Notes: generated by a model not told the origin, from the letters alone. A DNA stretch of 54,948 nt from a virus (IMGVR_UViG_3300033074_000450:64001-118948); one strand, 5' to 3'. Positions 2 through 31,423 are shown, counted from the first letter of the stretch. Numbers and translations: made by a program.

Positions 2-709
2 TTCGGTATGCCAATGGACATGTACCTTGGTACTGATGTTCACTCACGATTCAGCAGAGCTTTCTACGCTAAACAGCGTGTAATGTCTGGTTCTACAATC
101 AATGCTGGTCAAAAAGTTAAAGAATTTAACGGTTCTTTGGACTTCCGATTCAAGCCTAGCTTGTTCAACCGTCCTCGTAAAGCTCCTTTGGCTTCTACGA
201 TTTCAGCTCAAGCTGCTCCTACTGTAGCTAACTTGACTAGCCCTGCTGATGCTGCTTCTGAGTTTGCATCTGCTGACGCTGGTACTTACAGCTACCGAAT
301 CAGTGCAGTTTACTCTGACGGTGAGACTCTTGCCTCTTCACAAATTTCTGGAGCTGTTGCTGCTGGAGATAAAGTGATGATTGAGATTACTTACTCAGGT
401 GCTCCTCTGTACTTCAACGTATTCAGGGCTCCAGTAGGTACTACTTCAGGTCATGAGTTCATTGGTCGTATCGCTCCTGCTGGTTCAGGCGTTGCAGCTA
501 ATGTGGACTTCAACAAAATGCTCCCAGGTTCAGCTCGTGCTTACCTGTTGATGCATGACCCAGACGTATTGGTTTGGAAACAACTCGGTTCTATGATTAA
601 GTATGACCTTGCAGTTACAGACACTTCTTATAAGTGGCTCCAACTGTTGTACGGTACTCCACTTATCATGGCTCCTCGTAAAAACGTAATCTTGAAAAAT
701 CTTATCTAA
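2..709 (+). CDS. Major capsid protein, C-terminal part (5'-truncated by the window edge), SPO1/Twort-like
   Basis: Frame is open from base 2. C-terminus MIKYDLAVTDTSYKWLQLLYGTPLIMAPRKNVILKNL resembles the Herelleviridae MCP end; internal beta-rich insertion (TYSYRISAV...FNVFR); strong terminator follows. Confidence 0.8.
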   Translation, partial: FGMPMDMYLGTDVHSRFSRAFYAKQRVMSGSTINAGQKVKEFNGSLDFRFKPSLFNRPRKAPLASTISAQAAPTVANLTSPADAASEFASADAGTYSYRISAVYSDGETLASSQISGAVAAGDKVMIEITYSGAPLYFNVFRAPVGTTSGHEFIGRIAPAGSGVAANVDFNKMLPGSARAYLLMHDPDVLVWKQLGSMIKYDLAVTDTSYKWLQLLYGTPLIMAPRKNVILKNLI

Positions 710-8429: not shown

Positions 8430-8560
8430 AACAATTTTATTGGTTTATGTTTGTAATTTTTACACTAATTAGCGTTTATAGCTTCCTGGTTCTATTTGCT
8501 CCAGAAGCTACTCCTTTGTTTGAAGGGTCCCCTAACATAGAAGTAATCGAAGATTATTGA
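8426..8560 (+). CDS. Small single-TM membrane protein, 44 aa (not in the ORF track)
   Basis: ATGA overlap; MKQFYWFMFVIFTLISVYSFLVLFAPEATPLFEGSPNIEVIEDY; ends before the terminator. Confidence 0.55.
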   Translation: MKQFYWFMFVIFTLISVYSFLVLFAPEATPLFEGSPNIEVIEDY

Positions 8561-8603
8561 AGAGGCATAACAAACGCCTCGAAGATTACAGGGCTCCTTC
8601 TTG

Positions 8604-8634
8604 GACCCTCCTCGAAAGGGGAGGGTCTTTTTTT
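8604..8634 (+). terminator. Rho-independent terminator
   Basis: GACCCTCCTC-GAAA-GGGGAGGGTC followed by T7. Confidence 0.92.
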
Positions 8635-8645
8635 ATGATATAATT
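8635..8645 (+). promoter_or_regulatory. Putative late promoter (extended -10)
   Basis: ATGATATAATT directly after the terminator; no -35. Confidence 0.7.
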
Positions 8646-8673
8646 GAAAGAGATTCAATATAGGAGATTAGAA

Positions 8674-8928
8674 ATGCCTTGCTTAAAAAAATGTAAATGC
8701 GGTAAAGAAGAGAAGTTCTTTAAATTCCTTAATGATGAGGATATTGAGGCTTTTGAATGTGATGCTTGTCCAAAAGAAGAATCGGCTAAAAAATCGGCAA
8801 AATCTGAAGAAGAAAAGCCAGAAGTAGTTGAAAAGGTTGAGGAATCTCCTAAAGAAGAGTCGGACAAAAAAGAGGACAAAAAGTCTCGTAAGAAGAAGCA
8901 AAAGGCTGAAGACGAGAAACCAGAGTAA
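8674..8928 (+). CDS. Small Cys-containing, K/E-rich protein
   Basis: ATG 8674 after GGAG; CxxxCxC..CxxC then a low-complexity charged tail. Confidence 0.55.
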   Translation: MPCLKKCKCGKEEKFFKFLNDEDIEAFECDACPKEESAKKSAKSEEEKPEVVEKVEESPKEESDKKEDKKSRKKKQKAEDEKPE

Positions 8929-8940
8929 TCAGGATGATTG

Positions 8941-9195
8941 ATGAAACCGCTAAATATCTTTGAAACCACTAATGTTGACTTAGCTGCTTTTCTTATGTTC
9001 GAGGGTATTAAGTATTTGGAAGCTAAAAACAGTAAATCAATGGGTAAAGACTTGGTTGTACTGAGGTTTTTGGATGAGAAACAAAACTGTTTGGACCTTG
9101 AGAGAGTTTTCATGAGTTCGGACTTTAAAAAGTATAGAGACCTTACAAAGTATCTTTTGAAAGAAGTACATAGTAAGTTACGGGAGAGAGTGTAA
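8941..9195 (+). CDS. Hypothetical protein (DUF5659-like)
   Basis: ETTNVDLAAFLM N-terminus resembles the DUF5659 phage family (from memory). Confidence 0.45.
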   Translation: MKPLNIFETTNVDLAAFLMFEGIKYLEAKNSKSMGKDLVVLRFLDEKQNCLDLERVFMSSDFKKYRDLTKYLLKEVHSKLRERV

Positions 9196-9551
9196 TGGCA
9201 AACCCAAATTTCAAACAAAAGAATTCCATCGGTTCCGAAAAACGAGCCCAGTTGAATTATAACGAAGCTGCAAAAGCCCAAAAGCAAATGCAGGTTCAAG
9301 GTATGCCCTTTCAAGTCAATACTGGAGCCGAAGCTACCGCTGGAGTAAAAGTTGGCAAGGGTAATGTTTGTCGTGTATTTGGTACTGCTGCTGACCTCGT
9401 AATTTTCGCTGATTCCAACCCAGGCGGTGTTCCTACCGCTACCGACCAAACTGCTGCCATGCTTGGAGCCACAGTTCAATCATTTGTGGCAACGGGTGAG
9501 TTTATAAGGACTACTGCTGGAGTTACCAGGGTAGAAGTTATAGAAGACTAA
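9195..9551 (+). CDS. Hypothetical protein, possibly virion-associated
   Basis: TAATG coupling; Ala/Gly/Thr-rich beta sequence. Confidence 0.55.
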   Translation: MANPNFKQKNSIGSEKRAQLNYNEAAKAQKQMQVQGMPFQVNTGAEATAGVKVGKGNVCRVFGTAADLVIFADSNPGGVPTATDQTAAMLGATVQSFVATGEFIRTTAGVTRVEVIED

Positions 9552-9581
9552 GTGCGTCACATCCACTTAAGGGAGATAGAT

Positions 9582-9863
9582 ATGGCAGACCGTGAAGAGT
9601 ATTACGGTATCAATCGCTATTTATGTAGCGTTTTAGATGACATGAGAAAATGTTGCGAAACTCTTAATTTCGCTCCAATGAAGAGTCTTATCGAAGAGGC
9701 TCAGATTCTTGGCAATCGTATGGAGGCAGGTCTTGGAGACAAGCGTGACCTCATCAAGATGAACGTGGAGCATTCTGAGCTTCGCAAGAAGATTAAAGCT
9801 CTTCGTAAAGAAGTTAAGGAGCTTGAGAAGAAGCTCCCTAAAAAAGAAGAGAAGAAGAAGTAA
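9582..9863 (+). CDS. Hypothetical coiled-coil protein
   Basis: ATG 9582 after GGGAG; heptad C-terminus. Confidence 0.55.
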   Translation: MADREEYYGINRYLCSVLDDMRKCCETLNFAPMKSLIEEAQILGNRMEAGLGDKRDLIKMNVEHSELRKKIKALRKEVKELEKKLPKKEEKKK

Positions 9864-10033
9864 TGAAACATTGGAAGAAGACCTATCAGGCTTGGTACAT
9901 GACTATGGATTCAAAGCCTAGAGGCAAGCTAAAACAGCTTGTTAATAGAATTACTAGGTCTAAACTCAAATCTGAGCTAAGTAAGGAAGTTAAAACTTAC
10001 GAGCCTTCTTCAGCTTGTCCAGACGAGCGATAA
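9863..10033 (+). CDS. Small basic protein, 56 aa (not in the ORF track)
   Basis: TAATG coupling; overlaps the 3' end of a convergent gene. Confidence 0.35.
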   Translation: MKHWKKTYQAWYMTMDSKPRGKLKQLVNRITRSKLKSELSKEVKTYEPSSACPDER

Positions 10034-10208
10034 CCGAATCCCGTTCTTTTTTAGTTTGAAACCCAGCTCTAACCAAAGCTGGAGCATTCTTAAGCATCAA
10101 AGCAATGTAGAAGCCTTGCACCTCAGTATTACCTAAGACCCCTACTTCTGTATCCCAGTAAGCCATCAGGTCTGTTAATTTAAAACGTACTGTCCCTACC
10201 GTAATCAT
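9990..10208 (-). CDS. Hypothetical protein, 72 aa
   Basis: Start reassigned to ATG 10208, immediately after the nuclease stop. Confidence 0.55.
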   Translation of the reverse strand: MITVGTVRFKLTDLMAYWDTEVGVLGNTEVQGFYIALMLKNAPALVRAGFQTKKERDSVIARLDKLKKARKF

Positions 10209-10209
10209 T

Positions 10210-10683
10210 TTAAGCCCTTTCTCTGTAATAGAGTTGTGCATTCTTTTTAAACACTTCGAGTTTGAAAAGATAGTTCTTTGAATTAGAACCCTCATCTCCC
10301 CCAGTAACAATCCTATGGAACTGATTAGCCTTAACCATGTTCTTTAAAAGCTTCGTCTCAATCATGTACACGCAGATATCCCCATTTGGCTCATGAATTC
10401 TATAGCAATACAAGTCAGCTTGGGAAACCGAAATTCCAGAAGCTCGACCTCGACATTCAAACTCTAAGCCCACATTGCCTGTCTCTTGGCATGTGAAATC
10501 TTCCTTTATCTCAACTTTAATGAATTCTCCTCCAGTAGTCAAGATTCCTAAATCATAACGATTATCGTCATTATGTTGTATCTTTTTGATTTTATTAGGA
10601 TTAGCCTTCATAAGGAGGGTCGCAATAAACTCCTCGGTCTTCACAGCTATCTTGTGGTCTTTCTTAAAGTCATAATTGCCCAT
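10210..10683 (-). CDS. PD-(D/E)xK restriction-endonuclease-like nuclease
   Basis: RYDL...VEIKED...TGNVGLE...SGISVSQADLY pattern; SD GGAGG. Confidence 0.7.
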   Translation of the reverse strand: MGNYDFKKDHKIAVKTEEFIATLLMKANPNKIKKIQHNDDNRYDLGILTTGGEFIKVEIKEDFTCQETGNVGLEFECRGRASGISVSQADLYCYRIHEPNGDICVYMIETKLLKNMVKANQFHRIVTGGDEGSNSKNYLFKLEVFKKNAQLYYRERA

Positions 10684-10701
10684 GTTGAACCTCCAGCTAC
10701 C

Positions 10702-15609: not shown

Positions 15610-16446
15610 ATGTCTAAAGTAAAAGGCTCCAAAGAGGGAATCAGACAATCCAATAGACTCACTAAACGTGTGGGTCCACTTATCACCGTAGATGAGTTGA
15701 AATCACATTACTTGTTTGGTATAGTAATTGACGATGACAATGGGAACGAGCTTTCTCCAGAAGCCTATCAACAATTTATTGATAATGCGGTGTCTATGTT
15801 AGAGCACACTCTGGATATTTACATCACTCCTGAGACTATCATAGAAGACAAAGACTACCGAATCAATGATTATGCTGATTGGGGATATCTGTATCTAAAT
15901 AACTATCCTGTTGCGTCTATTGACAAGATTGAGATGGTTTACTTCAGAGATGCTGACGGAAATCCAGAAACTATTCAGGAAATCCCAACCAACTGGATGA
16001 GGCTTCAGAACCATGATGGTATTGTTCGTTTAGTCCCAAATGCTCGATTCCCAGCAAACCTACAAATTGACCAATCTGGAAACTATTTTCCAGAGGTTCT
16101 ACGTTCAAACATGGTTCCACATTTATGGAGATTGACTTATACTGCTGGTTTTGAAGATGGTAAGATTCCCGATATTGTGAATCAAGCTATTGGACTTCTT
16201 GCAGCGATTCAAGCCCTGATTGTAGGAGGTAACTTAGTTTTGGGAGCAGGTATCGCTTCTCAATCTATTAGTTTAGATGGTTTGAGTCAGAGTATTCAAA
16301 CTACGGCTTCTGCTGAAAATAGTACTTACTCTGCAACAATTAAAGAATACCAAACCTTACTTTTTGGTAAGAATGCTCAAGACCGTAGCGGTTTAATCGC
16401 AGTTTTGAAAGATTACTACAAAGGTGAGGGTATTGGAATAATTTAA
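15610..16446 (+). CDS. Head-tail adaptor / head completion protein
   Basis: ELKSHYLFG...NAVSMLEHTLD...YPVASIDKI...YTAGF...IPDIVNQAI...SQSISLDGLSQS connector pattern. Confidence 0.75.
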   Translation: MSKVKGSKEGIRQSNRLTKRVGPLITVDELKSHYLFGIVIDDDNGNELSPEAYQQFIDNAVSMLEHTLDIYITPETIIEDKDYRINDYADWGYLYLNNYPVASIDKIEMVYFRDADGNPETIQEIPTNWMRLQNHDGIVRLVPNARFPANLQIDQSGNYFPEVLRSNMVPHLWRLTYTAGFEDGKIPDIVNQAIGLLAAIQALIVGGNLVLGAGIASQSISLDGLSQSIQTTASAENSTYSATIKEYQTLLFGKNAQDRSGLIAVLKDYYKGEGIGII

Positions 16447-16476: not shown

Positions 16477-19400
16477 ATGGATAAATATACAAAAGCGTTA
16501 GACATTCTTAAAAGTGTAGGAGAAGGAAGTCGAGGAGGCCATGTGATTGGTCATACTCGCTCTGGACAACCTATCTATGATTCAGCTAATCACGAAACTC
16601 ATCAGCAGTTTAAAGCTCAAGACCATAAAGATGCTATGAATCATCATTATGATATTTGGTCTAAAACACAAGAAAAAATCAACTCCATCAGACAACAAAA
16701 TCCTAATTGGAACCCTCCCAAGGAAATACATGATTTTCTAAAACATCATTATACTCAAATGCAGATGCATCAAAGTGTCATGGGTAGAAAAATGGATAGG
16801 GAAGCAGCTCAAGCTAAAAACCTTAAAAAATCTGACGAAATCACTCCTTTCTATTCAGCGGTAGTTGTAGTTGATGCCAAAAAGAAGAATTTCCTTTTAG
16901 GTAAACGGAAGAATGATGGGCTTTGGACATCTCCTGCTGGAGGAGCCAAAGTTGGAGAACTTCCCAAGAAAACGGCTATTCGTGAAGCTTTTGAAGAGGC
17001 TGGATTTGTTCTAGAAGAAAGTCAACTGCAAGAACTCCCTATGGGATACGCAGATAATTATAAGCCAGTGCATTGCTATGTGGCAATCTTATCCCCAGAG
17101 CAAATGAAGAAAATCTCCACAATAAATGACCCTGATGAAGAAGTCAAAGAATGGAAATGGCTTCCTATTGATGAGAAGATGCCAAATACTGACGAGAATC
17201 GTGCTGCCACTCTCTTGAACGCTAAGATGCATCTGGCAGGAATTGTAATGAAATCCTACCATAATCTAGATGATATGGAAGGCATGACTTCTATCAATAC
17301 TCATGAATTTAAAGAAGAGAATGAAGAGAGTCATCCAATTAAAGAAAGTATCGAAAGACTCATGGAAGGCTATGAATCTGGAGATGAGCCTCGAAGACTT
17401 ATGCTTGACGGGGAGCATACTCTACACTTAGTCCGAGTCGATGAGGGTATTTTTTCTGGTTTCGTTAAAAAGAAATCAGAAGATGGTATGGAAGAGACCG
17501 CTGTTACTTTGGACAAGATGCCTATTCCTAGCATCGTACAATATTTAAAAGCTAAAGAGATTCTTAAAGACGCTCCTAAACAGGTTGAGCTTAAACAAGA
17601 CGATTCTGCTCTAAGAGAAGTAATCGAGCGTTTAGCTGGTATGACTGTTTATGGAGACGTAAATATCACTATCAAAAAAGCCAAGGCTCTACCAATCGGA
17701 ACAATCCGTCAATGGGGAGTTTACAAGTACGTTAAACACGCAGATGGCTGGGTAGTTGTGGGAGGAGAGCATCATGGTAAGCTTATGGGTAATTTTAAGT
17801 CTGAGCCTAGTCACGCTGATTTTGCTAGACATCATGAGGGTTCGACTCCTAAACAAGATGAGCCTGAAACAAAGCCAGAAGCTCCAAAGGTGGATGAGGG
17901 GACTTCCTCAAAAGAAAAGCCTAAAGCAGAAGCTAAACCAAAGGCTGAGAGTCCTAAAGAAGAGTCTAAGCCTAAAAGCCCTGAAGAAGAAATTAAACAA
18001 GCTAAAGAGCTTGGGAAGAAAGCTTTTGAAGAAGGTAAAGGACCTGCTCCCTCACAAAGTTCGGAGCTAATGAAACTTTTTAAAGAGAGAACTGACCAAT
18101 CTCATGAACATGGATTAGCTCTTATGGATGCTTATGCTAAAGAATGGCATAGGGCTAATCTAGCTGCTCCTGTTCCAGAACCAGAAGCCAAGCCCAAAGA
18201 AGAGCCTAAGAAGAAGGATGAGAAGCCAGTACAAGAACCTGGAGCACCTGAAGCAGAGACCGAAGATGATGTTGATGACCAACCCGAAGTAGATGCTAAA
18301 TTTGGTCAAGTAGATAATCCTAGAGAAGAAGCTGAAGCTGAACAGGCAGAGCTTGAATCTGAAGGTGAGTATGCTAATGCTCGTAAATCAAAGATTTCAA
18401 ATATAGGAGAAGACGTAGAGGGTTCGGCTCGACATAAAGCTATGGACTGGAAAGGTCTTGCACAAGCTGAGAAAGATGGTAATGCAGAAGCTTTTATTAA
18501 ACGTGACCAATTATTGAAGATGGAACCAACCAAATTCGATGAGATGGTAACTCCTCAGAATTATATGGTCGCTCTTCAAATGCAATCTGCTTTGGAGCGT
18601 TTTCCTCCAGCTCCTAAACACTCTTGGTTAACTGGAGGCTGGGACTCTAAACCAGACGAAGAACTTCGCTATGCTGAAGTAATGACTCCTGCTGGAAGTA
18701 CTAGAAAAATACATCCATCTGAATTTGAACGTCTTGAGAGAGAAGGAAATCTTCCTGGAGAAGTCGTTAAAAAGGTAACTGTTGGAGATATCAAAAAACA
18801 AATCCGAAGTGATTATCTTGATGCCTTCAATAAGGTTAAAGCTGCTGCCACAGAAATCGTTAAGACCAAAGGTACAGCAGATATCGTGGAAAACATGAAG
18901 GCTCTTCAAACTGAGGTTCAGAAAATCATAAAAGAACGCAGAGAAAAAGACCGCTATGACGAGATGGCTAACAACATGATTAACTATCTCAATAAGACTG
19001 TTTCTCCATCACTACGCAAACGTAATAATACTGTAATGAATGACTTGAATGAGTTTGCTGAGATGGCAGCAAAATATCATCAAACCGATGCTGCTGGACT
19101 TTTAGGCAATAAAGAAGTAGCTGAACAAGCAAAGCAAGTAATTAAAGGAAAACCAGCATCCAAGATTTTTGGAGTTGAAAAAGAAGGTAAGAAACGCTTC
19201 ACAGCAGCAGACCTTTATGTGGACCATGCAGACCGTCAAGGACCTGATTCTGGTTTAAATACGGTTACAGAACAAGCTGATTTCTTAAGCAAAAAAGCTA
19301 AAATGAGAGCTGTTCAATGGGGTAACTCTGTTACGGATGAAGAGCGTGAACATCATTTAAAACATGCTGCCAACGCTTTTAAAGACCTTACTGACATTCT

Positions 19401-19998
19401 AGGACTCCCAGAAGAAATGGGTTCATTCAATGGACGCTTGGCTCTTGCAATCGGAGCTAGGGGTAAAGGTACAGCCTTAGCACACTATGAGCCAGATAGT
19501 AAAACAATCAACCTCACTCGTAAAAAAGGAGTTGGTTCTCTTGCTCACGAATGGGGACACATGCTAGATAACGTGTTAGGAGAAATCCACACTGGTTCTG
19601 GCAGAAATTATGTTTCCGAAGGCTCCGCTTATGGAAACAAAGATATCCCAGTTTATAAAGAAATGAAGGAGTTTCAGTATTCTGAAACAATGTCCCAGTT
19701 CCGAGATAAGGTAAGAGATGCTATTCGTGAAGAGCAAAAGAAGGGCAATTCTGTAGATTCTGATTACTGGATGTCCCGAAAAGAAGTTTGGGCTCGTTGT
19801 TTTGAAAAGTATGTTTCCCATAAGCTCGAAAAGTCTGGCAGAAAGAACACTTACCTATCTGGAGTTAAGGACCATGCTTTTTGGCCTAACGACAAAGAGA
19901 TTGAAGCTATGGCTCCATATTTTGATAAAATTATAGAAGCTGCTAAATCGAATGGTGACATCAAGAAGGCTTTAGACCTTCTAGGAATAACCCTTTAA
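16477..19998 (+). CDS. Large polyvalent protein: Nudix hydrolase plus C-terminal LPD1-like zincin domain
   Basis: Perfect Nudix box GGAKVGELPKKTAIREAFEEAGF (~16939-17007); VQWGNS...LALAIGARG...AHYEP...SLAHEWGHMLD...EVWARCFE (LPD1-like). Confidence 0.85.
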   Translation: MDKYTKALDILKSVGEGSRGGHVIGHTRSGQPIYDSANHETHQQFKAQDHKDAMNHHYDIWSKTQEKINSIRQQNPNWNPPKEIHDFLKHHYTQMQMHQSVMGRKMDREAAQAKNLKKSDEITPFYSAVVVVDAKKKNFLLGKRKNDGLWTSPAGGAKVGELPKKTAIREAFEEAGFVLEESQLQELPMGYADNYKPVHCYVAILSPEQMKKISTINDPDEEVKEWKWLPIDEKMPNTDENRAATLLNAKMHLAGIVMKSYHNLDDMEGMTSINTHEFKEENEESHPIKESIERLMEGYESGDEPRRLMLDGEHTLHLVRVDEGIFSGFVKKKSEDGMEETAVTLDKMPIPSIVQYLKAKEILKDAPKQVELKQDDSALREVIERLAGMTVYGDVNITIKKAKALPIGTIRQWGVYKYVKHADGWVVVGGEHHGKLMGNFKSEPSHADFARHHEGSTPKQDEPETKPEAPKVDEGTSSKEKPKAEAKPKAESPKEESKPKSPEEEIKQAKELGKKAFEEGKGPAPSQSSELMKLFKERTDQSHEHGLALMDAYAKEWHRANLAAPVPEPEAKPKEEPKKKDEKPVQEPGAPEAETEDDVDDQPEVDAKFGQVDNPREEAEAEQAELESEGEYANARKSKISNIGEDVEGSARHKAMDWKGLAQAEKDGNAEAFIKRDQLLKMEPTKFDEMVTPQNYMVALQMQSALERFPPAPKHSWLTGGWDSKPDEELRYAEVMTPAGSTRKIHPSEFERLEREGNLPGEVVKKVTVGDIKKQIRSDYLDAFNKVKAAATEIVKTKGTADIVENMKALQTEVQKIIKERREKDRYDEMANNMINYLNKTVSPSLRKRNNTVMNDLNEFAEMAAKYHQTDAAGLLGNKEVAEQAKQVIKGKPASKIFGVEKEGKKRFTAADLYVDHADRQGPDSGLNTVTEQADFLSKKAKMRAVQWGNSVTDEEREHHLKHAANAFKDLTDILGLPEEMGSFNGRLALAIGARGKGTALAHYEPDSKTINLTRKKGVGSLAHEWGHMLDNVLGEIHTGSGRNYVSEGSAYGNKDIPVYKEMKEFQYSETMSQFRDKVRDAIREEQKKGNSVDSDYWMSRKEVWARCFEKYVSHKLEKSGRKNTYLSGVKDHAFWPNDKEIEAMAPYFDKIIEAAKSNGDIKKALDLLGITL

Positions 19999-20007
19999 GG
20001 AACTAAC

Positions 20008-20856
20008 ATGAAAAAATTACAATTACTGGAAGAAATGGCAAAAAGTACTCAAGAGTTCAATCTAGCCATCAAGCTTCAAAAATCAGAAGAGTTCCAAAAG
20101 GCTCAAGGTCTTCCCGTAGGAAGCGTTAGATTGTGGCATGGTCAGAAATTCATTAAACAAGGTGATGGACACTGGGTCCCACTTCCTTCTGGTCAACAGG
20201 GACAAGGGCAGCAAAGTCAACCCCAGCAACAACCAGCTCCTCAACAAGAAGCTAAACCACAAGAGCAACAGGCACAAAAACAGGAAGCGAAAAGTGATGA
20301 GCTTGAAAAACAACCTCAAGAAAAATCTATTGAATCTGAACCTTTAGGCCATCTTAAGCCTAAAGAGGGGTTCGGAGGTCATGTAGGATTACATTCAAAA
20401 GACCTTGATGAGAGTTTGAAGAATGGTAAGTATTCCCTTATTTCTGCTGGACGTAATCCAAATAATGCAGGAGATAGGGCTCTTACAGATGACCAGATTA
20501 AAGAGCGTTATAAGCGTTTAGAGCAAGACTTGAAGGACCAGGGATACAAGTATTCTAAAGTCAAGGGTCATTACGGTGGAGAAGAAGATTCCTTTATGGT
20601 CCATCACGCTAAACCAGAACACATGAACGAGCTTGGGATGAAATATAACCAGGATTCAGTCATTCATAGCGACCAAGGCAAACATAAGATGCATTTTACT
20701 ACAGGTGACAATTCAGGGATGCATCATAAAGGTGAGGGTTTCCAAGAGGTCCCAGACGCTAAAGATTACTACAGTGTAATAAATACAACTGATGGGCAGC
20801 AAAAGAAGTTTAGTTTGAACTTTGATTTCGGCAAACACCATAAGGCCGATGAGTAA
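20008..20856 (+). CDS. SAM lyase (T3 SAMase-like) domain fused to a leader module
   Basis: LISAGR...KGHYGGEEDSF...KYNQDSVI...GFQEVP parallels T3 SAMase VSAFR...GCYRE...EEKT...WEQDCVL...SFQEVP (recalled from memory). Confidence 0.7.
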   Translation: MKKLQLLEEMAKSTQEFNLAIKLQKSEEFQKAQGLPVGSVRLWHGQKFIKQGDGHWVPLPSGQQGQGQQSQPQQQPAPQQEAKPQEQQAQKQEAKSDELEKQPQEKSIESEPLGHLKPKEGFGGHVGLHSKDLDESLKNGKYSLISAGRNPNNAGDRALTDDQIKERYKRLEQDLKDQGYKYSKVKGHYGGEEDSFMVHHAKPEHMNELGMKYNQDSVIHSDQGKHKMHFTTGDNSGMHHKGEGFQEVPDAKDYYSVINTTDGQQKKFSLNFDFGKHHKADE

Positions 20857-20866
20857 CAAATACAGT

Positions 20867-20877
20867 ATGGTATAATT
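20867..20877 (+). promoter_or_regulatory. Putative late promoter
   Basis: ATGGTATAATT. Confidence 0.7.
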
Positions 20878-20899
20878 TAATTATTGACGGAGAAATGCA

Positions 20900-22147
20900 A
20901 TGTCTAAAACAAAAGAACAGATTGATGTAGAAATTACAAACTTAGCTGAACAGATGGTTAAGTCTGTAACTGATTCTAAACAACTTCTTTTCGATACCAT
21001 CATGAATCTTGGTCCTGAGAACCTTAAGAAGGCCGTTGCCTCTCTTTCTGATTCTGAGAAGGAAGTCTTGAAATCATGTGTGGCAGACTTGCAAAAAGCT
21101 AAAGAGGTTTCTGCTGAAATCACTCCTAAGAAGACTGAAACTAAAGCTGCTGAAATGAAAACTGAGTCTCAGACTGGTTCTGATGATGAAGATGAAAAGA
21201 AGCTTATGGATGAGAAGAACGCAGAACATCCTCATCAAGGTGGACCTAAAGACAAGCCCGAAGGTTGGGAAGGTCAAGTAATTAAAGCCAAAAAAGAAGA
21301 CGAAGAGCCTGAAGTTGAAATGCCAGCTAAAGAAGCTGTAAAAGAGCACAAGCGTCTAGTTAATGTTTTGGAGTCTGATTCTAAAAAAGATGACAAAGAA
21401 GAAGCTAAAAAACAAAAGAAAGAGCTTAAAGAATATCAATCAGAAATGAAAAAAGCTGATGATAAAGCTGTTGATGCTTTGATTCAGATTGAGGAAGCAG
21501 AACACAATAAAGATATTAACGGTGACGGTAAAATTGCCGAGAAACTTGAAAAGGAAAAGAAAATGAAAAAGTCATTAGAAGAAATCGTTGAGTTGGCTAA
21601 GTCACTCAATATGTCTAAAGAGGAAGTCATTAAGACGATTAAAGATTCTAATGATGACCTTGAACTTGTTAAGGGCAAAATGAAAGAAAAGTTTGCCGAA
21701 CAAGGTATGAAGCTTGCTGAACCCAAAAAAGAAGACGAGGGTTCTCCCGAAGATAAGAAAGAAGATAAAAAGGAAAAGAAGATGGAGAAATCTGTCAACT
21801 GGAACTTTAAGTCCTCTATCGCTGCCAATAGTTTGGGTCGTAATACTCACTGGGATGTGGATTCATACATCGAGAAGTCTGAAGCTGAGAAGCAAGAGAT
21901 TATCAAAAAAGGTGGATATTTCGGAGAAACTCAAGATGAGACTCTTCAAAAGTCTGAGTCTAAAAAAGTTGACATTAACGACCTAATCGAAAAAGGTCAA
22001 GATTATTCTACTGAAGAAATCAAGCGTATTGAAGGTATCCGTGACCACAAGATTGAAGGTAAGGTTGTTAAATCTTTCCACGATGAGGATATCGCTGCTG
22101 CTCTTGGCATGACTAAGGAAGAATATAAAAAGTTAATGGGAGAGTAA
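20900..22147 (+). CDS. Highly charged internal head / scaffold-like protein
   Basis: K/E/D-rich; more than 10 hydrophobic-x-K-[SAG] motifs; DINGDGKI loop. Confidence 0.6.
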   Translation: MSKTKEQIDVEITNLAEQMVKSVTDSKQLLFDTIMNLGPENLKKAVASLSDSEKEVLKSCVADLQKAKEVSAEITPKKTETKAAEMKTESQTGSDDEDEKKLMDEKNAEHPHQGGPKDKPEGWEGQVIKAKKEDEEPEVEMPAKEAVKEHKRLVNVLESDSKKDDKEEAKKQKKELKEYQSEMKKADDKAVDALIQIEEAEHNKDINGDGKIAEKLEKEKKMKKSLEEIVELAKSLNMSKEEVIKTIKDSNDDLELVKGKMKEKFAEQGMKLAEPKKEDEGSPEDKKEDKKEKKMEKSVNWNFKSSIAANSLGRNTHWDVDSYIEKSEAEKQEIIKKGGYFGETQDETLQKSESKKVDINDLIEKGQDYSTEEIKRIEGIRDHKIEGKVVKSFHDEDIAAALGMTKEEYKKLMGE

Positions 22148-22151: not shown

Positions 22152-22955
22152 ATGTCAAAACCCCAAGGCTGGAATCAAAAGCCTCCAGTGCAGTTAGCTG
22201 CTAAACCTACTGGGGGAAGGGTCGATATAGACCCTGCAAAATTTGAACAACTCATTCAAGAGAAGGGTGTTCGAGTTAAAGTCTATAGGACTGTTTTTTG
22301 TCCAAACGTAAAATCTATTGACGGTGGAGAGCACAACATTGATTGTGACCTCTGTAATGGTTCTGGTTTTTTAGATACCAGACCAATTTGTACCCTTGCA
22401 TTCATTCAAAATCAAGCTCTAGAAAAACTTCCCTTCGTAGAAGGTATGGTTGATGGTAACTCCGTAGCGGCTACTTTTCCTATGGGAATCGAGCTTCAGT
22501 ACTTTACTCTTGTGGAACTTGAAGACTTTACTGAAATCTATTTTCAACGTGTCAAGCGTCAAGAGGGTGATATAGATGTTCTCAAATACAAGGCTCATAG
22601 AGTTAATCTTTGCATAGACCAATATGGAAAAGAGTATTTCCAAGACAATGATTTTTGTATTGACCCCAACGGATGTATTAAATGGAACCCGAATAAGGGA
22701 CCTAATCCTGGAGATATTTACTCAATTCACTATGAAGCTTCTGTTCAATTCAGGGCCGTAAGAGCCATGCATAATAACCGCTTCACTCAGTACCTCACCA
22801 AAAAAGAGGGAGGGGGAGCAGTTCATGTTAAACTTCAAGAGCAATGGGTTCTTCAAAAAGAGTACTTAGTTAAACGAAAAGACCTAGATGGTAATGAGAT
22901 TCTCCCGAACCTCATTCATGAAAAAACTGACCCAGACGCTCCAGAAGAAGATTAA
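22152..22955 (+). CDS. Neck / head-closure protein with Zn-binding motif
   Basis: FEQLIQEKG..VKVYRTVFCP...CDLCNGSG matches the Herelleviridae-type neck protein pattern. Confidence 0.7.
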   Translation: MSKPQGWNQKPPVQLAAKPTGGRVDIDPAKFEQLIQEKGVRVKVYRTVFCPNVKSIDGGEHNIDCDLCNGSGFLDTRPICTLAFIQNQALEKLPFVEGMVDGNSVAATFPMGIELQYFTLVELEDFTEIYFQRVKRQEGDIDVLKYKAHRVNLCIDQYGKEYFQDNDFCIDPNGCIKWNPNKGPNPGDIYSIHYEASVQFRAVRAMHNNRFTQYLTKKEGGGAVHVKLQEQWVLQKEYLVKRKDLDGNEILPNLIHEKTDPDAPEED

Positions 22956-25784: not shown

Positions 25785-25985
25785 ATGAAAATTTTACCCG
25801 TACACCTTTTAAAACTCCGTTGGCTCCTTGCTAATACAGACCTCTTGAAGAGGACTGAGCTGGAGCTGGTACAAAATATGCAACAATCTTGGTCAAAAGT
25901 CAATTACTTAGTTTCCTGTCCTGTAACTTTGTCTGCATTGGATAAAGTTTATGAGTCTGTCAAAAAGGAGTACACATGTCAGTAA
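25785..25985 (+). CDS. Hypothetical protein upstream of sigma
   Basis: SD AGGAGG; overlaps the sigma start. Confidence 0.6.
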
Positions 25986-27502
25986 AAGATACGCTCGAAT
26001 CTTACAGTGCAGAATTAGATGTGGTCAAGTCGTATCTTGCCAAACTGAATAGATTGGAACTTCTTACCAAGGACCAAGAAGCTGAGATTTGCAAAGCTAT
26101 CGAAGTTGGAGAAGATAAGATTCTGAAAGTGTGTGTCAGGTCCCCTCTCATTTTGAAACAGATTCTTTCTTACAGAAATATTCTAATAGAGAATCCTTCT
26201 ATGGTAGTTGGCATGGTTAGAAAGCTAGACGAGGAATCCTCTGATGAAGAAATAAATGAAACCTTTAAAAGGATGTTTACCCTTTTTGAGGCTATTGACA
26301 CTTTCCTAGATAAGCCTACAAAAGTTTTGGAAAAGAAGATTGTTAGTGAATTACAGGAACTCACCTTTAATACTAAAACCATCACGGCTTTTCTTCAACC
26401 ATTCAAAGACTTAGTTCAGAAGGCTAAGGATTTGAGAAAGAAGAGTGACCTCAATCTCAAAGAGTTAAGACTCGAAAACCATAAACACTTTGCAAAACTG
26501 TTGATTTCTTTGACAGATAAACTTGAAGGTAATGAGCCTATTTTAAATGAAGAAGCTGTGAGTAATCTAGCCCACTCTCTTGGCTTTTCTGTAAAAGAGA
26601 CAAGAGCCATGATTGAAGCTCAGAAAACTTTGATGCGTGAATTAGCCATAAATTCAGTATTGCTTGAAAAAGACTATAAGAAGCTGGAAACTACTAACTC
26701 AGTTTTATTCAAAGCGGAGCAAACTGCAATCCTAGCCAAAAACAAACTAATTGAGGGAAATCTTCGTTTAGTAGTTTCACGGGCTAAAAAGTTCACTAAC
26801 CGAGGTTTGGAGTTTGAGGATTTGATTCAGGAAGGTAACATTGGGCTAATGAAGGCTGTTGATAAGTTTGAATATCGAAAAGGTTATAAATTCAGTACTT
26901 ATGCAACATGGTGGATTGACCAAGTTCTAGGAAGGTCTATTGCAGACCAATCCAGAATGATTCGTTTACCAGTCCACATGGTTGAGACCGTCAACGCTGT
27001 TAACAAAGCTAGAGCCCGATTGATTCAGGTTCTAGGCAAGGAACCATCTGTGGAAGACCTAATCAAAGCTACTAAGCTTGAGGAAGATAAAGTACGAAAA
27101 GCTCTCTCTATTGCAAAAGACCCAATTAGCTTTGAGACGGAGGTTTCTGGAGACCAAGATTCCCCAGAAGGTTCAACTCTCGAAGATTTTATCGCAGACA
27201 CTTCCGAGACCAGTGCCTACAAGAATGTGGTTAGACAAGCCCTGATGGAGGGTATTAGAAAGCTCTTGTCAAGACTTCCTCCTAGAGATGAGAAGATTAT
27301 TAGGCTTCGTTTTGGTATTGGGGAGCCTTTGAACGAAGATTATACTCTAGAAGAGATTGGAAATAAGTTTCCAAATACTAAAACTGGAGAGCCTTTGACC
27401 AGAGAACGTATTCGACAAATTGAAGAAAAATGTAAGGCCAAACTCAAGAAAATGAGCAAGGGTGAGATTTTCAAGCTCTTGTTCCTTTCAGAAGATTTGT
27501 AA
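25976..27502 (+). CDS. rpoD: Phage-encoded RpoD-like group 1 sigma70 factor lacking region 1.1
   Basis: Region 1.2 DVVKSYL..LLTKDQE; non-conserved region; [49 protein letters not shown]; IRLPVHMVE; TLEEIG...TRERIRQIE. Confidence 0.97.
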
Positions 27503-29566: not shown

Positions 29567-31423
29567 ATGGGAATCAAAAAATCTTTCGCTGGAGCATCAA
29601 TCAGAAAACCTGGAGCATATTCTAGGTCTAAAGTTGATAATTCGAGTGGAGCACCTCTTGGAACGAATGACACATTATTTTTAATCGGAGAAGCCGATTC
29701 TGGTAGAGCTGGTTCTGTTGAAGGAATCGTAGAATTTACTGCTGAACAAATTGACCGCTTAATCGAAAAGTTCACTTCTGGTCCTGTTGTTGACTGTGCT
29801 CTTGCAGCTACCCGTCCATCCCCAGATTCTACTATCGGTGGAGCTGGTCGTATTTTAGTGTATATCACTAATGCGTTGGCTCAAGCGTCTAGAACTGTAA
29901 ACGAAGCTACCAATACCAACCCTCTTTACTCTGTAAAAGACCGTAAAGGTGGAGTTTCTGGTAATGACCTTTCAATCACTATTGCCAACGGTACTGTTCC
30001 TGCTCGTCAGAAACTTATCACTATCAATCGTTTGAATGATACCGCTGAAGTATTGGGTGAGAATCCTGGTACTGCTGTAATCTCGATTGATTACACTGGA
30101 GATGCTACAACTGCTTCTGCTGTGATTTCTGGAGCTTCTAAAGCTGCCAAAACTCTTGCAATTACCCTTGCTGGAGACCAAACAGACGGTTCATTGAACC
30201 AAAGCATTATGCTTGCAAACTATACTTTCAAACAACTTGTGGACTTCATCAATGCTCAAGTAGGTTATGCTGCTGTTCTTTTGGATTCTTCTAAAGCTGC
30301 TTTGAAAGCTAATGAGCTTGACTCAATCGGTGCTACTAGCATTCTTTCAGTTACTAGCTTGTATCGTCTTCAAGAAGAAATTCTTGAACTCATCAATGAA
30401 TCTGACCGTGTAGAGGCTTCTTTGGCCGCTACTCCTGTTGTAGGTCTGCCTGTCAACTTGACTAACTCCTTCCTTTCGGGTGGAGCTAAAGGTGCATCTA
30501 CTAACTCTAGCTTCTCAACTGGACTCTCTAAGTCACTTGCACGAGACTACTCTGTAGCTCTTCCTTGTATCTCTAGAGACGCTTCTGCTGATATCGCTGA
30601 CGGCATGACTGATGCAGGTTCTACTTATACTATCGCTGCTGTTCAAGCCGCTCTGGAAACTCACCTTGTTCTTCGTGGTTCTGTTAAGAATCGTAAAGAA
30701 GCTCAAGGCCACACTGGTTTCCGTGATGCTCAGAAAGCTGACTGTTTTGCTCAAGCTGCTAACATCGGTTCTGAGTTGGTTCAGGTTTCAATCCAGGACG
30801 TTTTAGTTCTTGATGTGAACGGTGACTTGGCTTGGAAACATCCTCATGTTCACGCTGCCCTTTGTGCAGGTATCCGATTGGGTACTGAAGTCGGTGAGCC
30901 TTTGACTCACAAGTTCCTAAACGTAAACGGAGTTGGTCACGTTGTAGACCCTCTGACTGGTTTGGAAACTGGAGACTTTAACGAGAGTCTGGATGTTGAT
31001 GATGCAATCGACGCTGGAGTTACCTTCTCTGAAAAAGCTCAGGGTGGACACCGAATCGTTGTGGATAACACAACTTATGGAGTTGACCAAAGCTTCGTAT
31101 TCAACAGGGGTTCTGTTGTAGAAGCTGCTCAGTTTACTGCTAAGACTCTTCGTGAGACTGCTGAATTGGTTTTCGTTGGTAAGAAAGTTTCTAACGGAGC
31201 TGCTTCTTCCATCAAGTCGGTTCTTCGCAATAAACTTGAAGAGTTGAACAGAGCTAACATCATCACCGCTTCTGACGATGCTCCTCAAGGTTTCGTAGAA
31301 GAGACTTTCGTAGTTACCGTAACTGGAAATACTGCTGAAGTTCAAGTTGAAGTTAAACCTGTTCAAGGATTGGACTTTGTATTCATTACTTTCACTTTGG
31401 GAGATATTAAGCAATCAGCTTAA
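29567..31423 (+). CDS. Contractile tail sheath protein
   Basis: IRKPGAYSRS N-terminus; LIGEADSG; IVVDNTTY; VEVKPVQGLDFVFITF C-terminus. Confidence 0.92.
   Translation: MGIKKSFAGASIRKPGAYSRSKVDNSSGAPLGTNDTLFLIGEADSGRAGSVEGIVEFTAEQIDRLIEKFTSGPVVDCALAATRPSPDSTIGGAGRILVYITNALAQASRTVNEATNTNPLYSVKDRKGGVSGNDLSITIANGTVPARQKLITINRLNDTAEVLGENPGTAVISIDYTGDATTASAVISGASKAAKTLAITLAGDQTDGSLNQSIMLANYTFKQLVDFINAQVGYAAVLLDSSKAALKANELDSIGATSILSVTSLYRLQEEILELINESDRVEASLAATPVVGLPVNLTNSFLSGGAKGASTNSSFSTGLSKSLARDYSVALPCISRDASADIADGMTDAGSTYTIAAVQAALETHLVLRGSVKNRKEAQGHTGFRDAQKADCFAQAANIGSELVQVSIQDVLVLDVNGDLAWKHPHVHAALCAGIRLGTEVGEPLTHKFLNVNGVGHVVDPLTGLETGDFNESLDVDDAIDAGVTFSEKAQGGHRIVVDNTTYGVDQSFVFNRGSVVEAAQFTAKTLRETAELVFVGKKVSNGAASSIKSVLRNKLEELNRANIITASDDAPQGFVEETFVVTVTGNTAEVQVEVKPVQGLDFVFITFTLGDIKQSA

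What the first reader, a model, noticed from the sequence alone, without database searches (positions are those of the whole stretch)
16477..22147. Candidate capsid-packaged, protease-processed cargo system marked by hydrophobic-x-K|S/A motifs
Seen: three consecutive genes inside the head/neck region carry recurring [ILVMF]-x-K-[SAG] motifs. In the 1173-aa protein they fall at domain junctions: ILK|S13, LKK|S119 (just before Nudix), VMK|S260 (just after Nudix), IKK|A402, IKK|A1165. The 282-aa protein has three in its first 32 residues (MAK|S, LQK|S, FQK|A). The 415-aa protein has more than 10 (MVKS, VLKS, LQKA, VIKA, MKKS, LAKS, MEKS, IEKS, LQKS, VVKS). Known: MCP precursors of Herelleviridae such as Listeria A511 are matured by cleavage between Lys and Ser, and this MCP is of that type. 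Inference: the proteins are packaged into the prohead, cut by the head protease into free enzymes (Nudix, LPD1 zincin, SAM lyase) and injected with the DNA as an immediate anti-defence payload, i.e. a viral polyprotein strategy.
Basis: partly seen in the sequence, partly recalled or inferred. Interest (0 to 1): 0.92.

Follow-up and report, generated by a model that had tools for sequence, protein, structure and literature searches.

The report
Head-protease cut sites mark phage cargo
A short motif (hydrophobic-x-Lys, then Ser/Ala/Gly) looks like the cut site of this phage's head-maturation protease; it fills one scaffold-like protein and sits at the module borders of two neighbouring enzyme-carrying proteins, which suggests that they are loaded into the capsid and cut into separate enzymes, though no experiment shows this.

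Summary
The window is the right-hand 55 kb of a 118,948-bp uncultured myovirus. Its portal, prohead protease and major capsid protein (MCP) are about 30% identical to those of Herelleviridae.

- **Motif:** [ILVMF]-x-K|[S/A/G] is specific. P1 is Lys and not Arg, and P1' Ser is 8-12x enriched. It is concentrated in the scaffold gene next to the MCP gene (11 seen, 1.5 expected), in the protease, and at one invariant MCP N-terminal site. Three Herelleviridae phages show the same pattern. It is most likely the prohead-protease site.
- **415-aa protein:** 15 sites against 3 expected, 0 of 50,000 shuffles reach this, and 69 of 70 homologues share the excess. It has no enzyme domain and a low-confidence predicted model. 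I read it as a second, degradable core or scaffold protein, not as cargo.
- **1173-aa and 282-aa proteins:** neither has a count excess (7 against 6; 3 against 1.3). However, five of the seven sites in the 1173-aa protein are conserved at module borders, and four of these lie in predicted linkers. An N-terminal leader of about 12 residues ending in the motif recurs in 35 of 56 homologues.

Packaging, cleavage and injection remain inferences. This is a new variant of the T4/phiKZ internal-protein theme and of the polyvalent-protein theme.

The parts
16477..19998 (+). 1173-aa polyvalent cargo protein (P0001). Predicted pieces run from the leader to the 9-residue C-terminal tail; each is listed separately below.
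   Evidence: Pfam NUDIX 57 bits and LPD1 51 bits. An HExxH motif (HEWGH) is read in the translation. Site conservation. AlphaFold model with mean pLDDT 77.
16477..16512 (+). N-terminal leader of the 1173-aa protein, MDKYTKALDILK|S. It is a candidate capsid-targeting propeptide ending in the protease motif.
   Evidence: The site is conserved in 13 of 15 aligned homologues. A motif starts at residues 3-22 in 35 of 56 polyvalent homologues, against 26 of 158 ORFs of the genome. pLDDT is below 50.
16513..16830 (+). Module 'GEGSRGGHVIGHT...' followed by a helical hairpin (residues 13-118), ending at LKK|S119.
   Evidence: The same module occurs directly after a K| site in members of the 415-aa family (P0012, P0043, P0058) and in cargo proteins of relatives. 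No Pfam hit.
16831..17253 (+). Nudix hydrolase module (residues 119-259) with an intact Nudix box, flanked by LKK|S119 and VMK|S260.
   Evidence: Pfam PF00293, E = 2.4e-15. The flanking sites are conserved in 15/18 and 15/15 homologues. All nine Nudix modules read by eye in relatives end in the motif.
17254..17679 (+). 'Domain X' (residues 260-401): a small alpha+beta module found in a cargo-slot protein at each of the 11 related loci, followed by a tail and then IKK|A402.
   Evidence: It is found in 33 non-redundant homologous segments, 30 of them aligned. A Phi-x-K|[SA] site directly precedes it in 12 of 12 locus proteins, whatever lies upstream. AlphaFold core pLDDT is about 90. There is no significant fold match; the best hit is a weak PUR/PC4-like one, E = 0.075.
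17680..19968 (+). Residues 402-1164: 'W-module' (LPIGTIRQW..Y.K..DGW), disordered Lys/Glu/Pro linkers, a helical region, a zincin with HExxH, and LPD1. No conserved internal site, so one 86-kDa product is predicted.
   Evidence: The K| site before the W-module is conserved in 24 of 24 homologues. Residues 915-1158 are 34% identical to polyvalent proteins of Stx phages. Internal sites 888 and 1117 are not conserved and lie in folded regions.
20008..20856 (+). 282-aa protein (P0002): a leader region with three sites (residues 1-31), then the W-module, a Gln/Pro-rich linker and a SAM lyase domain (residues 158-258).
   Evidence: Pfam S-AdoMet_lyase PF23780, 40.1 bits against a cutoff of 28. Homologues keep a K| site just before the W-module. 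In relatives the same module is fused to the Nudix protein (L038 919 aa, L042 573 aa, P0089-P0091).
20900..22147 (+). 415-aa acidic, Lys-rich protein (P0003) with 15 motif sites. Proposed to be a degradable prohead core or scaffold-like protein.
   Evidence: 15 sites against 3.0 expected, 0 of 50,000 shuffles. Of 70 homologues, 69 carry 10-23 sites against 2.3-5.2 expected. The near-invariant alignment columns are mostly the sites themselves. No Pfam or PHROG family. The Atlas model has pLDDT 0.44. It is not homologous to the MCP-adjacent scaffold family.
15610..16446 (+). Left flank: 278-aa virion protein, homologue of phage 812 gp98 and SP-10 gp143.
   Evidence: PHROG 772, E = 8e-46. blastp to 812 gp98, E = 2e-24.
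22152..22955 (+). Right flank: 267-aa virion structural protein, homologue of phage 812 gp99 and SP-10 gp144.
   Evidence: PHROG 1004, E = 1e-14. blastp to 812 gp99, E = 1e-6.
2..709 (+). C-terminal half of the major capsid protein. The N-terminus with the LQK|A31 site, the scaffold (11 sites) and the prohead protease lie just upstream of the window, at genome positions 61188-64709.
   Evidence: PHROG 752. Motif statistics.

Best explanation
Phi-x-K|[S/A/G] (Phi = L, M, V, I or F) is the recognition site of this phage's Herelleviridae-type prohead serine protease.

During head assembly the protease:
1. trims the MCP after K30;
2. processes itself;
3. shreds the MCP-adjacent scaffold into peptides of 1-8 kDa.

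The three genes of the finding form an accessory head-interior module. It is inserted between two conserved virion genes and is probably co-transcribed with them.

The 415-aa protein is a second, poorly structured core or scaffold-like protein. It would be cut at about 15 sites into small peptides that leave the head.

The 1173-aa and 282-aa proteins are polyvalent cargo. A leader of about 12 residues ending in the motif would take them into the prohead. The protease would then remove the leader and cut at the conserved linker sites. The predicted free products are a 12-kDa module, a 16-kDa Nudix hydrolase, the 16-kDa domain X, an 86-kDa W-module-zincin/LPD1 protein and a 28-kDa W-module-SAM lyase. 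These would stay in the head and enter the host with the DNA.

Shown by computation: motif specificity, enrichment, positional conservation, location in linkers, synteny and module shuffling. Inferred: which protease cuts, packaging, cleavage, ejection and any anti-defence role.
For: 1. **Motif specificity.** In the scaffold family and in the 415-aa family, P1' after Phi-x-K is Ser at 11.7x and 8.3x, Ala at 4.9x and 3.7x, and Gly at 1.5x and 2.5x. P1 is Lys (7.0x and 4.8x) and not Arg (0.3x and 0.7x). P3 is L, M, F, V or I. The rest of the genome is flat (0.9-1.4x).
2. **Link to head maturation.** In 33 related contigs the MCP N-terminus keeps L-[QNH]-K|A-L, the scaffold has 6-15 sites against about 1.8 expected, and the protease has 4-11 against about 2. 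The protease carries a copy of the MCP N-arm directly after a Phi-x-K|A site. The same pattern is seen in phage 812 (scaffold-like gp95 7 against 1.4, MCP VVK|S24), SP-10 (annotated scaffold 8 against 1.4, protease 8 against 1.1, MCP LNK|A) and, more weakly, Listeria phage cka16. The protease is homologous to Herelleviridae prohead proteases.
3. **The 415-aa family.** 1181 sites in total against 248 expected in 71 proteins. The conserved alignment columns are the sites. The family is unrelated to the scaffold family, so the two enrichments are independent.
4. **The cargo proteins.** Five sites are conserved and two are not. Upstream context varies while Phi-x-K| is kept before the W-module (24/24) and before domain X (12/12). 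Four conserved sites lie in linkers with pLDDT below 50. An N-terminal leader motif occurs in 35 of 56 homologues against 26 of 158 genome ORFs. Local-homology junctions lie next to sites 164 times against 95 +/- 8.6 expected.
5. **Modules move.** They move between separate genes, fused polyproteins and members of the 415-aa family.
6. **Precedents.** T4 gp21 degrades core proteins and clips the leaders of internal proteins (PMC9958956). SPN3US gp245 does likewise (PMC10052503). An LPD1-bearing polyvalent protein is abundant in phi24B virions (bioRxiv 10.64898/2026.04.10.717836).
Against: - There are no protein-level data of any kind. This is an uncultured phage known only from metagenomes.
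- Site counts in the 1173-aa and 282-aa proteins are no higher than composition predicts.
- Homologues are not independent samples, so the conservation counts overstate the evidence.
- Phi-x-K-[SAG] at the end of a helix before a linker could be kept for structural reasons.
- The C-terminal site (K1164|A) is part of a conserved LPD1 element found in distant polyvalent proteins of unknown origin (29/29). It is therefore weak evidence for this protease.
- Long disordered linkers at residues 450-497 and 567-616 carry no site.
- The genome has a second protease-like gene (ClpP family), so which protease cuts is inferred only by analogy with phage 812 and SP-10.
- I could not retrieve the published Lys|Ser cleavage of the A511 MCP.
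Confidence: 0.6

Rival explanations
1. Only the 415-aa protein, together with the scaffold, protease and MCP, is a protease substrate. The 1173-aa and 282-aa proteins are ordinary late-expressed cytoplasmic enzymes, and their few motif matches are chance or structural features. They are neither packaged nor cut.
For: Counts of 7 against 6.1-6.4 and 3 against 1.2-1.4 are not significant. Two of the seven sites are clearly chance. Polyvalent homologues as a set show only a 1.46x excess, 503 against 345.
Against: Five sites are conserved in 13/15 to 29/29 homologues. Phi-x-K| is kept in front of the same module under different upstream sequences. Four sites lie in predicted linkers. Leaders of about 12 residues ending in the motif recur, and some homologues lack the leader and start directly at the Nudix fold. 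Modules are shared with the 415-aa family. The genes lie inside a virion gene block.
Confidence: 0.22
2. The polyvalent protein is cut by its own zincin (MPTase/LPD1) domain, as proposed for polyvalent proteins in general. The head protease is not involved.
For: An HExxH zincin plus LPD1 is present. Iyer et al. 2017 propose MPTase autoprocessing (PMC5512222). The LKK|AL element at the end of LPD1 is conserved in 29 of 29 homologues, including distant ones.
Against: Several related loci have cargo proteins with the same bordered modules and, on my reading of the sequences, no zincin (for example L044, L045, L048); this was not checked with a domain search. The identical motif fills the scaffold, the protease and the MCP N-terminus, also in Herelleviridae head modules where no such gene lies between the gp98 and gp99 homologues.
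Confidence: 0.07
3. The products are packaged and processed but act inside the head or during ejection, for example in DNA organisation, in forming an ejection conduit or in degrading the cell wall. They are not anti-defence effectors.
For: For phi24B gp47 the authors propose a conduit or peptidoglycan role. Domain X and the W-module have no enzymatic signature. Domain X has a weak PUR/PC4-like fold hit, a fold typical of nucleic-acid binders.
Against: A SAM lyase and a Nudix hydrolase have no obvious structural role. The cargo slot changes fast among relatives and holds RelA/SpoT, FMN reductase, PI3/4-kinase-like, GNAT and PAP2 domains by Pfam, plus modules that look GIY-YIG-like by eye. This is typical of conflict genes.
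Confidence: 0.15

Closest known systems
T4 prohead core system: gp21 protease, gp22/gp67/gp68 core proteins, internal proteins IPI-III and Alt with an N-terminal capsid-targeting sequence
   Same: One head protease with a short motif trims the MCP, shreds the core proteins to small peptides and clips leaders of about 10 residues from proteins that stay in the head and are injected. IPI is an anti-restriction protein (PMC9958956). Here the 415-aa protein and the scaffold would play the gp22/67/68 role, and the 1173-aa and 282-aa proteins the IP/Alt role.
   Different: The protease is of a different type (Herelleviridae type, PHROG 1028) and the motif ends in Lys rather than Glu. The cargo proteins are multi-domain, with predicted internal cuts between enzymes rather than leader removal alone. 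Nothing has been shown experimentally.
Giant-phage head maturation (phiKZ gp175, SPN3US gp245, 201phi2-1)
   Same: [quoted passage not shown] Propeptides are cut at several sites. The protease clips its own C-terminus (PMC10052503).
   Different: Those cuts follow Glu and mostly remove long N-terminal propeptides. This genome is 119 kb with a Herelleviridae-like head, and the cuts would release separate enzymes from one chain.
Polyvalent proteins of phages and conjugative elements (Iyer, Burroughs, Anand, de Souza, Aravind 2017); phi24B gp47
   Same: Several unrelated effector domains in one polypeptide, including a zincin/LPD1. The gene lies among head genes, domains are shuffled extensively, and packaging and proteolytic release are predicted (PMC5512222). 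phi24B gp47 is 34% identical over residues 919-1158 and is abundant in virions.
   Different: The published model invokes the protein's own metallopeptidase. Here the junction motif matches the head-maturation protease, and zincin-free relatives keep the junction sites. A SAM lyase is part of the repertoire.
Herelleviridae head maturation (A511, K/812, SPO1 group)
   Same: Portal, protease and MCP are homologous at about 30% identity. There is an MCP N-terminal K|S or K|A site, and scaffold and protease are rich in Phi-x-K|S.
   Different: In 812 and SP-10 the gp98 and gp99 homologues are adjacent, with no cargo genes and no 415-aa-like gene between them. There is no nucleotide similarity to any cultured phage.

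Membership tests
Prohead-protease substrates (T4-type core and internal head proteins) | The phage encodes a prohead maturation protease next to the scaffold and MCP genes | tested here: met
   PHROG 1028, E = 2e-37. The order is portal ... protease - scaffold - MCP at genome positions 61188-64709. The protein is homologous to Herelleviridae prohead proteases.
Prohead-protease substrates (T4-type core and internal head proteins) | The protein carries the protease's recognition motif, defined independently on MCP and scaffold, above chance or at conserved exposed positions | tested here: met
   415-aa protein: 15 against 3.0. 1173-aa and 282-aa proteins: no count excess, but conserved linker and leader sites. 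The motif itself is inferred from sequence, not from cleavage data.
Prohead-protease substrates (T4-type core and internal head proteins) | The protein is present in proheads or virions and is cleaved there | not testable with these tools
   The phage is uncultured and no proteomic data exist.
Prohead-protease substrates (T4-type core and internal head proteins) | An N-terminal targeting peptide is sufficient for encapsidation | tested here: inconclusive
   A leader ending in the motif recurs in 35 of 56 homologues. Its function was not tested.
Polyvalent proteins (Iyer et al. 2017) | Two or more unrelated effector or enzymatic domains in one polypeptide | tested here: met
   NUDIX, an HExxH zincin and LPD1 in the 1173-aa protein. 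Homologues add SAM lyase, RelA/SpoT, FMN reductase, PI3/4-kinase-like, GNAT and PAP2 domains.
Polyvalent proteins (Iyer et al. 2017) | The gene lies with phage head or packaging genes, and domain architectures are shuffled among relatives | tested here: met
   Synteny at 11 related loci, with a variable slot between conserved virion genes. Fused and split forms of the Nudix and SAM lyase modules both occur.
SAM lyase (Pfam PF23780, T3 SAMase type) | Profile match above the curated cutoff | tested here: met
   40.1 bits against a cutoff of 28, residues 158-258 of the 282-aa protein.
SAM lyase (Pfam PF23780, T3 SAMase type) | Catalytic residues and enzymatic activity | not tested
   No residue-level comparison with T3 SAMase or Svi3-3 was made.
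Nudix hydrolase (PF00293) | Profile match and an intact Nudix box GX5EX7REUXEEXGU | tested here: met
   57.1 bits against a cutoff of 21.1. The box GGAKVGELPKKTAIREAFEEAGF, read in the translation, fits the pattern.
Phage scaffolding protein (for the 415-aa protein) | Homology to a known scaffold family | tested here: not met
   No Pfam or PHROG hit. hhalign probability against the MCP-adjacent scaffold family is 0.4%. No match among cultured phages. The scaffold-like reading rests on composition, the low-confidence model and site density only.

The most novel reading that the evidence does not exclude
A clade of 110-120-kb phages with Herelleviridae-like heads uses its head-maturation protease as a polyprotein processor. 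A swappable slot in the neck operon encodes multi-enzyme precursors (Nudix, SAM lyase, zincin, and in relatives RelA/SpoT, kinase-like and other domains). Each module is bracketed by Phi-x-K|S/A sites, and a dedicated degradable 415-aa chaperone or scaffold accompanies them. The virion would thus deliver a set of ready-made, individually released anti-defence enzymes, including the first virion-borne SAM lyase.
Probability: 0.35. Interest if true: 0.8.

Novelty: new variant of a known kind. Interest (0 to 1): 0.62.

Why it matters
If it holds, the site rule gives a purely sequence-based way to predict which proteins of Herelleviridae-like phages are loaded into the head and where they are cut. 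It would link two ideas that have stayed separate: polyvalent proteins, and prohead-protease processing as in T4 and phiKZ. It would also show that a phage can pre-load fast-acting counter-defence enzymes, such as a SAM lyase against SAM-dependent restriction or BREX, or a Nudix enzyme, instead of depending on early transcription. The leader and the site could also be used to load foreign proteins into such capsids. The Herelleviridae include therapeutic Staphylococcus and Listeria phages, and their scaffold and protease show the same motif.

Tried and rejected
- **Nucleotide search** of the region against cultured phages found no match. tblastn of the 415-aa protein against phages also found none.
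- **The search for related loci with the single 415-aa protein** failed because the search patterns were low in complexity. It worked with the alignment.
- **Homology between the 415-aa family and the MCP-adjacent scaffold family:** rejected, hhalign probability 0.4%.
- **Pfam at E up to 1** on the leader module, domain X, the W-module and the C-terminal part of the 415-aa protein gave nothing credible.
- **Fold search of domain X** in PDB and BFVD gave no hit at E <= 0.001. The PUR/PC4-like hits are only weak.
- **Protein Atlas search for the 415-aa protein** gave only unnamed clusters below 0.9.
- **The sigma factor (508 aa) as a substrate:** it has 9 sites against 2.9 expected, and 8 against 3.0 in the closest relative. 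More distant homologues show no excess (2-4 against 2.3-3.1). Rejected as a conserved feature.
- **Sites 888 and 1117 of the 1173-aa protein:** rejected as chance. They are not conserved and lie inside the folded zincin.
- **Promoter and terminator scan:** uninformative, except that no strong plus-strand terminator lies within the block.
- **Literature:** the Loessner and Scherer 1995 A511 paper is not held. Several searches for a published Herelleviridae cleavage motif found nothing usable. No paper on a virion-borne SAM lyase was found.
- **Complex prediction** was not used. The binding partner of the leader is unknown and enzyme-substrate pairs are poor targets for it.


Full report
**Context**

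The window is positions 64001-118948 of a 118,948-bp IMG/VR virus record. It has no nucleotide match among cultured phages.

The head genes lie just upstream of the window:
- large terminase at 49177-51054;
- portal at 51497-53563;
- a ClpP-like protein at 59575-60567;
- a head maturation protease (PHROG 1028, 302 aa) at 61188-62096;
- an acidic 268-aa scaffold-like protein at 62390-63196;
- the MCP (469 aa, PHROG 752) at 63300-64709.

MCP, protease and portal are about 30% identical to those of Herelleviridae such as Staphylococcus phage 812 and Bacillus phage SP-10.

**The observation**

I counted [ILVMF]-x-K-[SAG] in 158 ORFs of the whole genome and compared each count with shuffles of the same protein, which corrects for Lys content. 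Five ORFs stand out:

| ORF | Sites seen | Sites expected |
|---|---|---|
| MCP-adjacent scaffold | 11 | 1.5 |
| 415-aa protein | 15 | 3.0 |
| Protease | 8 | 2.4 |
| Sigma factor | 9 | 2.9 |
| 168-aa ORF after the sheath gene | 6 | 1.0 |

In 50,000 shuffles the maximum was 11 for the 415-aa protein and 8 for the scaffold. The 1173-aa protein (7 against 6.1, p about 0.4) and the 282-aa protein (3 against 1.4, p about 0.16) show no excess by count.

**Is the motif a real signal?**

In the scaffold family (34 sequences) and the 415-aa family (71 sequences), the residue after Phi-x-K is Ser at 11.7x and 8.3x the shuffled expectation. Ala is 4.9x and 3.7x, and Gly 1.5x and 2.5x. P1 is Lys (7.0x and 4.8x) and not Arg (0.3x and 0.7x). 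P3 is Leu, Met, Phe, Val or Ile. The other 153 ORFs of the genome are flat. The two families are not homologous (hhalign probability 0.4%), so the enrichments arose independently.

In 33 related viral contigs:
- the MCP N-terminus keeps an invariant L-[QNH]-K|A-L at about residues 28-32;
- the scaffold has 6-15 sites against about 1.8 expected;
- the protease has 4-11 sites against about 2 expected.

The protease also carries a near copy of the MCP N-arm right after a Phi-x-K|A site. In L021 it reads IQK|ALAVSQNYGTTAP..GGSAL, against LQK|ALSISQNYGSTAP..GGSAL in the MCP.

The same picture appears in true Herelleviridae:
- Phage 812: MCP VVK|S24, scaffold-like gp95 7 sites against 1.4, protease 6 against 1.6.
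- SP-10: MCP LNK|A, annotated scaffold 8 against 1.4, protease 8 against 1.1.
- Listeria phage cka16 (an A511/P100 relative): MCP ALK|S, with weaker enrichment.

I therefore take Phi-x-K|[S/A/G] to be the prohead-protease site, with confidence about 0.85. The published Lys|Ser cleavage of the A511 MCP fits this, but I could not retrieve the paper. That point rests on recall.

**The 415-aa protein**

It has no Pfam or PHROG family and no relative among cultured phages. Seventy metagenomic homologues exist. All but one carry 10-23 sites against 2.3-5.2 expected, and the total over the 71 proteins of the family is 1181 against 248. In a 21-sequence alignment with only 28% mean column identity, the invariant and near-invariant columns are largely the sites themselves: K21|S22, K43, K66, Q126-V127-x-K129, K258, K297|S298, K351|S352, K365 and K391|S392.

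Cutting at all sites gives 16 fragments of 0.9-7 kDa, much like the scaffold's 12 fragments of 1.1-7.9 kDa. The ESM Atlas model is of low confidence (pLDDT 0.44). This is the signature of a protein made to be destroyed inside the prohead, like T4 gp22, gp67 and gp68 (PMC9958956). It is not an enzyme cargo.

**The 1173-aa and 282-aa proteins**

Domain hits:
- 1173-aa protein: NUDIX at residues 128-244 (57 bits, box intact) and LPD1 at residues 1094-1158 (51 bits). LPD1 is preceded by an HExxH zincin.
- 282-aa protein: SAM lyase at residues 158-258 (40 bits against a cutoff of 28).

Eleven related loci share the gene order 136 aa - 126 aa - 278 aa - [variable cargo ORFs] - [motif-rich 415-like ORF] - 267 aa. 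The 278-aa and 267-aa proteins are homologues of 812 gp98 and gp99, and correspond to SP-10 gp143 and gp144. Those genes are adjacent in 812 and SP-10. The cluster is therefore an insertion into the virion gene block.

The slot is highly variable. Nudix and SAM lyase are fused in one chain in L038 (919 aa), L042 (573 aa) and P0089-P0091. Other relatives carry RelA/SpoT, FMN reductase, PI3/4-kinase-like, GNAT and PAP2 domains by Pfam, and modules that look GIY-YIG-like by eye.

The positional evidence is as follows.

1. *Conservation of the five listed sites.* They are conserved in aligned homologues: K12| in 13/15, K118| in 15/18, K259| in 15/15, K401| in 24/24 and K1164| in 29/29. The two unlisted sites are not: K890| in 0/26 and K1119| in about 14/46.
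2. *Module borders.* The same module is always preceded by Phi-x-K|, whatever lies upstream. This holds for domain X in 12 of 12 locus proteins, for the W-module in 24 of 24, and for every 'GEGSRGG / GGxGSGxxGH' module seen.
3. *Leader.* A leader of about 12 residues ending in the motif (MDKYTKALDILK|S; MKKLQLLEEMAK|S) occurs in 35 of 56 polyvalent homologues, against 26 of 158 ORFs genome-wide. Some homologues lack it and begin directly at the Nudix fold.
4. *Predicted structure.* In an AlphaFold model of the 1173-aa protein (34-sequence alignment, mean pLDDT 77), the first four conserved sites lie in segments with pLDDT below 50. Such segments make up 17% of the chain. The two non-conserved sites lie inside the confidently folded zincin.
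5. *Homology junctions.* Junctions of local homology between proteins of different architecture lie next to a site 164 times, against 95 +/- 8.6 for random site positions.
6. *Shared modules.* Cargo modules also occur inside members of the 415-aa family, right after a site (P0012, P0036, P0043, P0058).

Caveats:
- Homologues are not independent.
- K1164|A belongs to a conserved LPD1 element found in distant proteins too.
- Long linkers at residues 450-497 and 567-616 carry no site. The zincin/LPD1 would therefore remain in an 86-kDa product with the W-module.

**Mechanism proposed**

The steps are inferred unless marked otherwise.

1. The genes are expressed late with the virion genes. Shown: the gaps between genes are 4-43 nt and no plus-strand terminator lies inside the block.
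2. The leader, and perhaps other elements, target the precursors to the prohead core, possibly through the 415-aa protein or the scaffold.
3. The prohead protease removes the leaders and cuts at the linker sites.
4. The 415-aa protein and the scaffold are degraded and leave the head.
5. The folded products (a 12-kDa module, Nudix, domain X, W-zincin/LPD1 and W-SAM lyase) stay with the DNA and are ejected into the host.

Precedents are T4 IPI and Alt, the SPN3US ejection proteins and phi24B gp47. The last is an LPD1-bearing polyvalent protein, 34% identical over residues 919-1158, abundant in virions and proposed to be an ejection protein.

**Comparison and novelty**

Iyer et al. 2017 already predicted that polyvalent proteins are packaged and proteolytically released, but by their own metallopeptidase. 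Processing of internal proteins by the head protease is textbook for T4 and established for phiKZ-like phages.

Four things are new here:
- the Lys-type site rule for a Herelleviridae-like protease, derived from sequence;
- its use at inter-enzyme junctions of a polyvalent protein;
- a dedicated multi-site companion protein;
- a SAM lyase in the presumed virion cargo. I found no report of one.

I class this as a new variant of a known kind. My confidence is about 0.85 that the motif is the protease site, about 0.7 that the 415-aa protein is a degradable head-interior protein, about 0.55 that the two enzyme proteins are packaged and cut, and lower for injection and an anti-defence role.

**Earlier notes of this scan**

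They overlap this finding and did not change my reading.

Noticed in passing
window 31433-31939 (+), 168-aa ORF between the tail sheath (29567-31423) and the conserved 135-aa ORF (31958-32365): This ORF is also enriched in the motif (6 sites against 1.0 expected). Its homologues in relatives are too: 4 against 0.8 in L038, 8 against 0.9 in L040 and 3 against 0.4 in L043. A protease-site-rich protein inside the tail module is unexpected. It has no Pfam or PHROG family.
   Followed up: partly
genome 61188-62096 (upstream of the window; L002:16189-17097), prohead protease: After a Phi-x-K|A site at residues 204-207, the protease carries a copy of the MCP N-arm (K|ALGVGAGGAAAP..GGDAL against MCP K|ALSISQNYGTTAP..GGSAL). 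The copy is conserved in most relatives, and the same mimicry occurs in phages 812, cka16 and SP-10. It may anchor the protease in the shell in the way an MCP subunit is anchored.
   Followed up: partly
L039, L041, L044-L048 and P0107, P0114, P0128: C-termini of cargo proteins: Many cargo proteins of relatives end in a conserved amphipathic helix, (K/R)-I-(R/K)-x-L-E-L-(I/V)-x-K-L-(L/I)-x. The 1173-aa protein has a similar internal segment (ALREVIERLAG, residues about 382-392) just before the K401| site. It could be a second targeting or docking element.
   Followed up: no
window 25976-27502 (+), RpoD-like sigma factor: It has 9 motif sites against 2.9 expected, and 8 against 3.0 in the nearest relative L038. 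More distant homologues show no excess. This is probably lineage-specific chance.
   Followed up: partly
window 19960-19998; LPD1 C-terminus of the 1173-aa protein: The element F-(K/R)-x-S-x-x-L-K-K|A-L at the end of LPD1 is kept in 29 of 29 aligned homologues. These include distant polyvalent proteins that either continue for hundreds of residues or stop about 10 residues later. It may be a general LPD1 feature or a widely used processing site.
   Followed up: partly
genome 59575-60567, 53565-53804 and 60684-61172 (upstream of the window): A second protease-like gene of the ClpP family (Pfam E = 4e-11) lies in the head module. A 79-aa ORF after the portal has two N-terminal motif sites, and a 162-aa ORF before the protease has a leader, MSSDDQKRTLSLVEK|ALDL. 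These may be further head-interior proteins.
   Followed up: no
window 1080-10700, between the MCP gene and the neck genes: About 10 kb or more of non-structural genes split the head module from the neck and tail module. They include an RNA ligase, a nucleotidase-like protein, an acetyltransferase, an exonuclease, an AAA ATPase, a peptide deformylase and a subtilase-like protease. This differs from the contiguous arrangement in phages 812 and SP-10.
   Followed up: no
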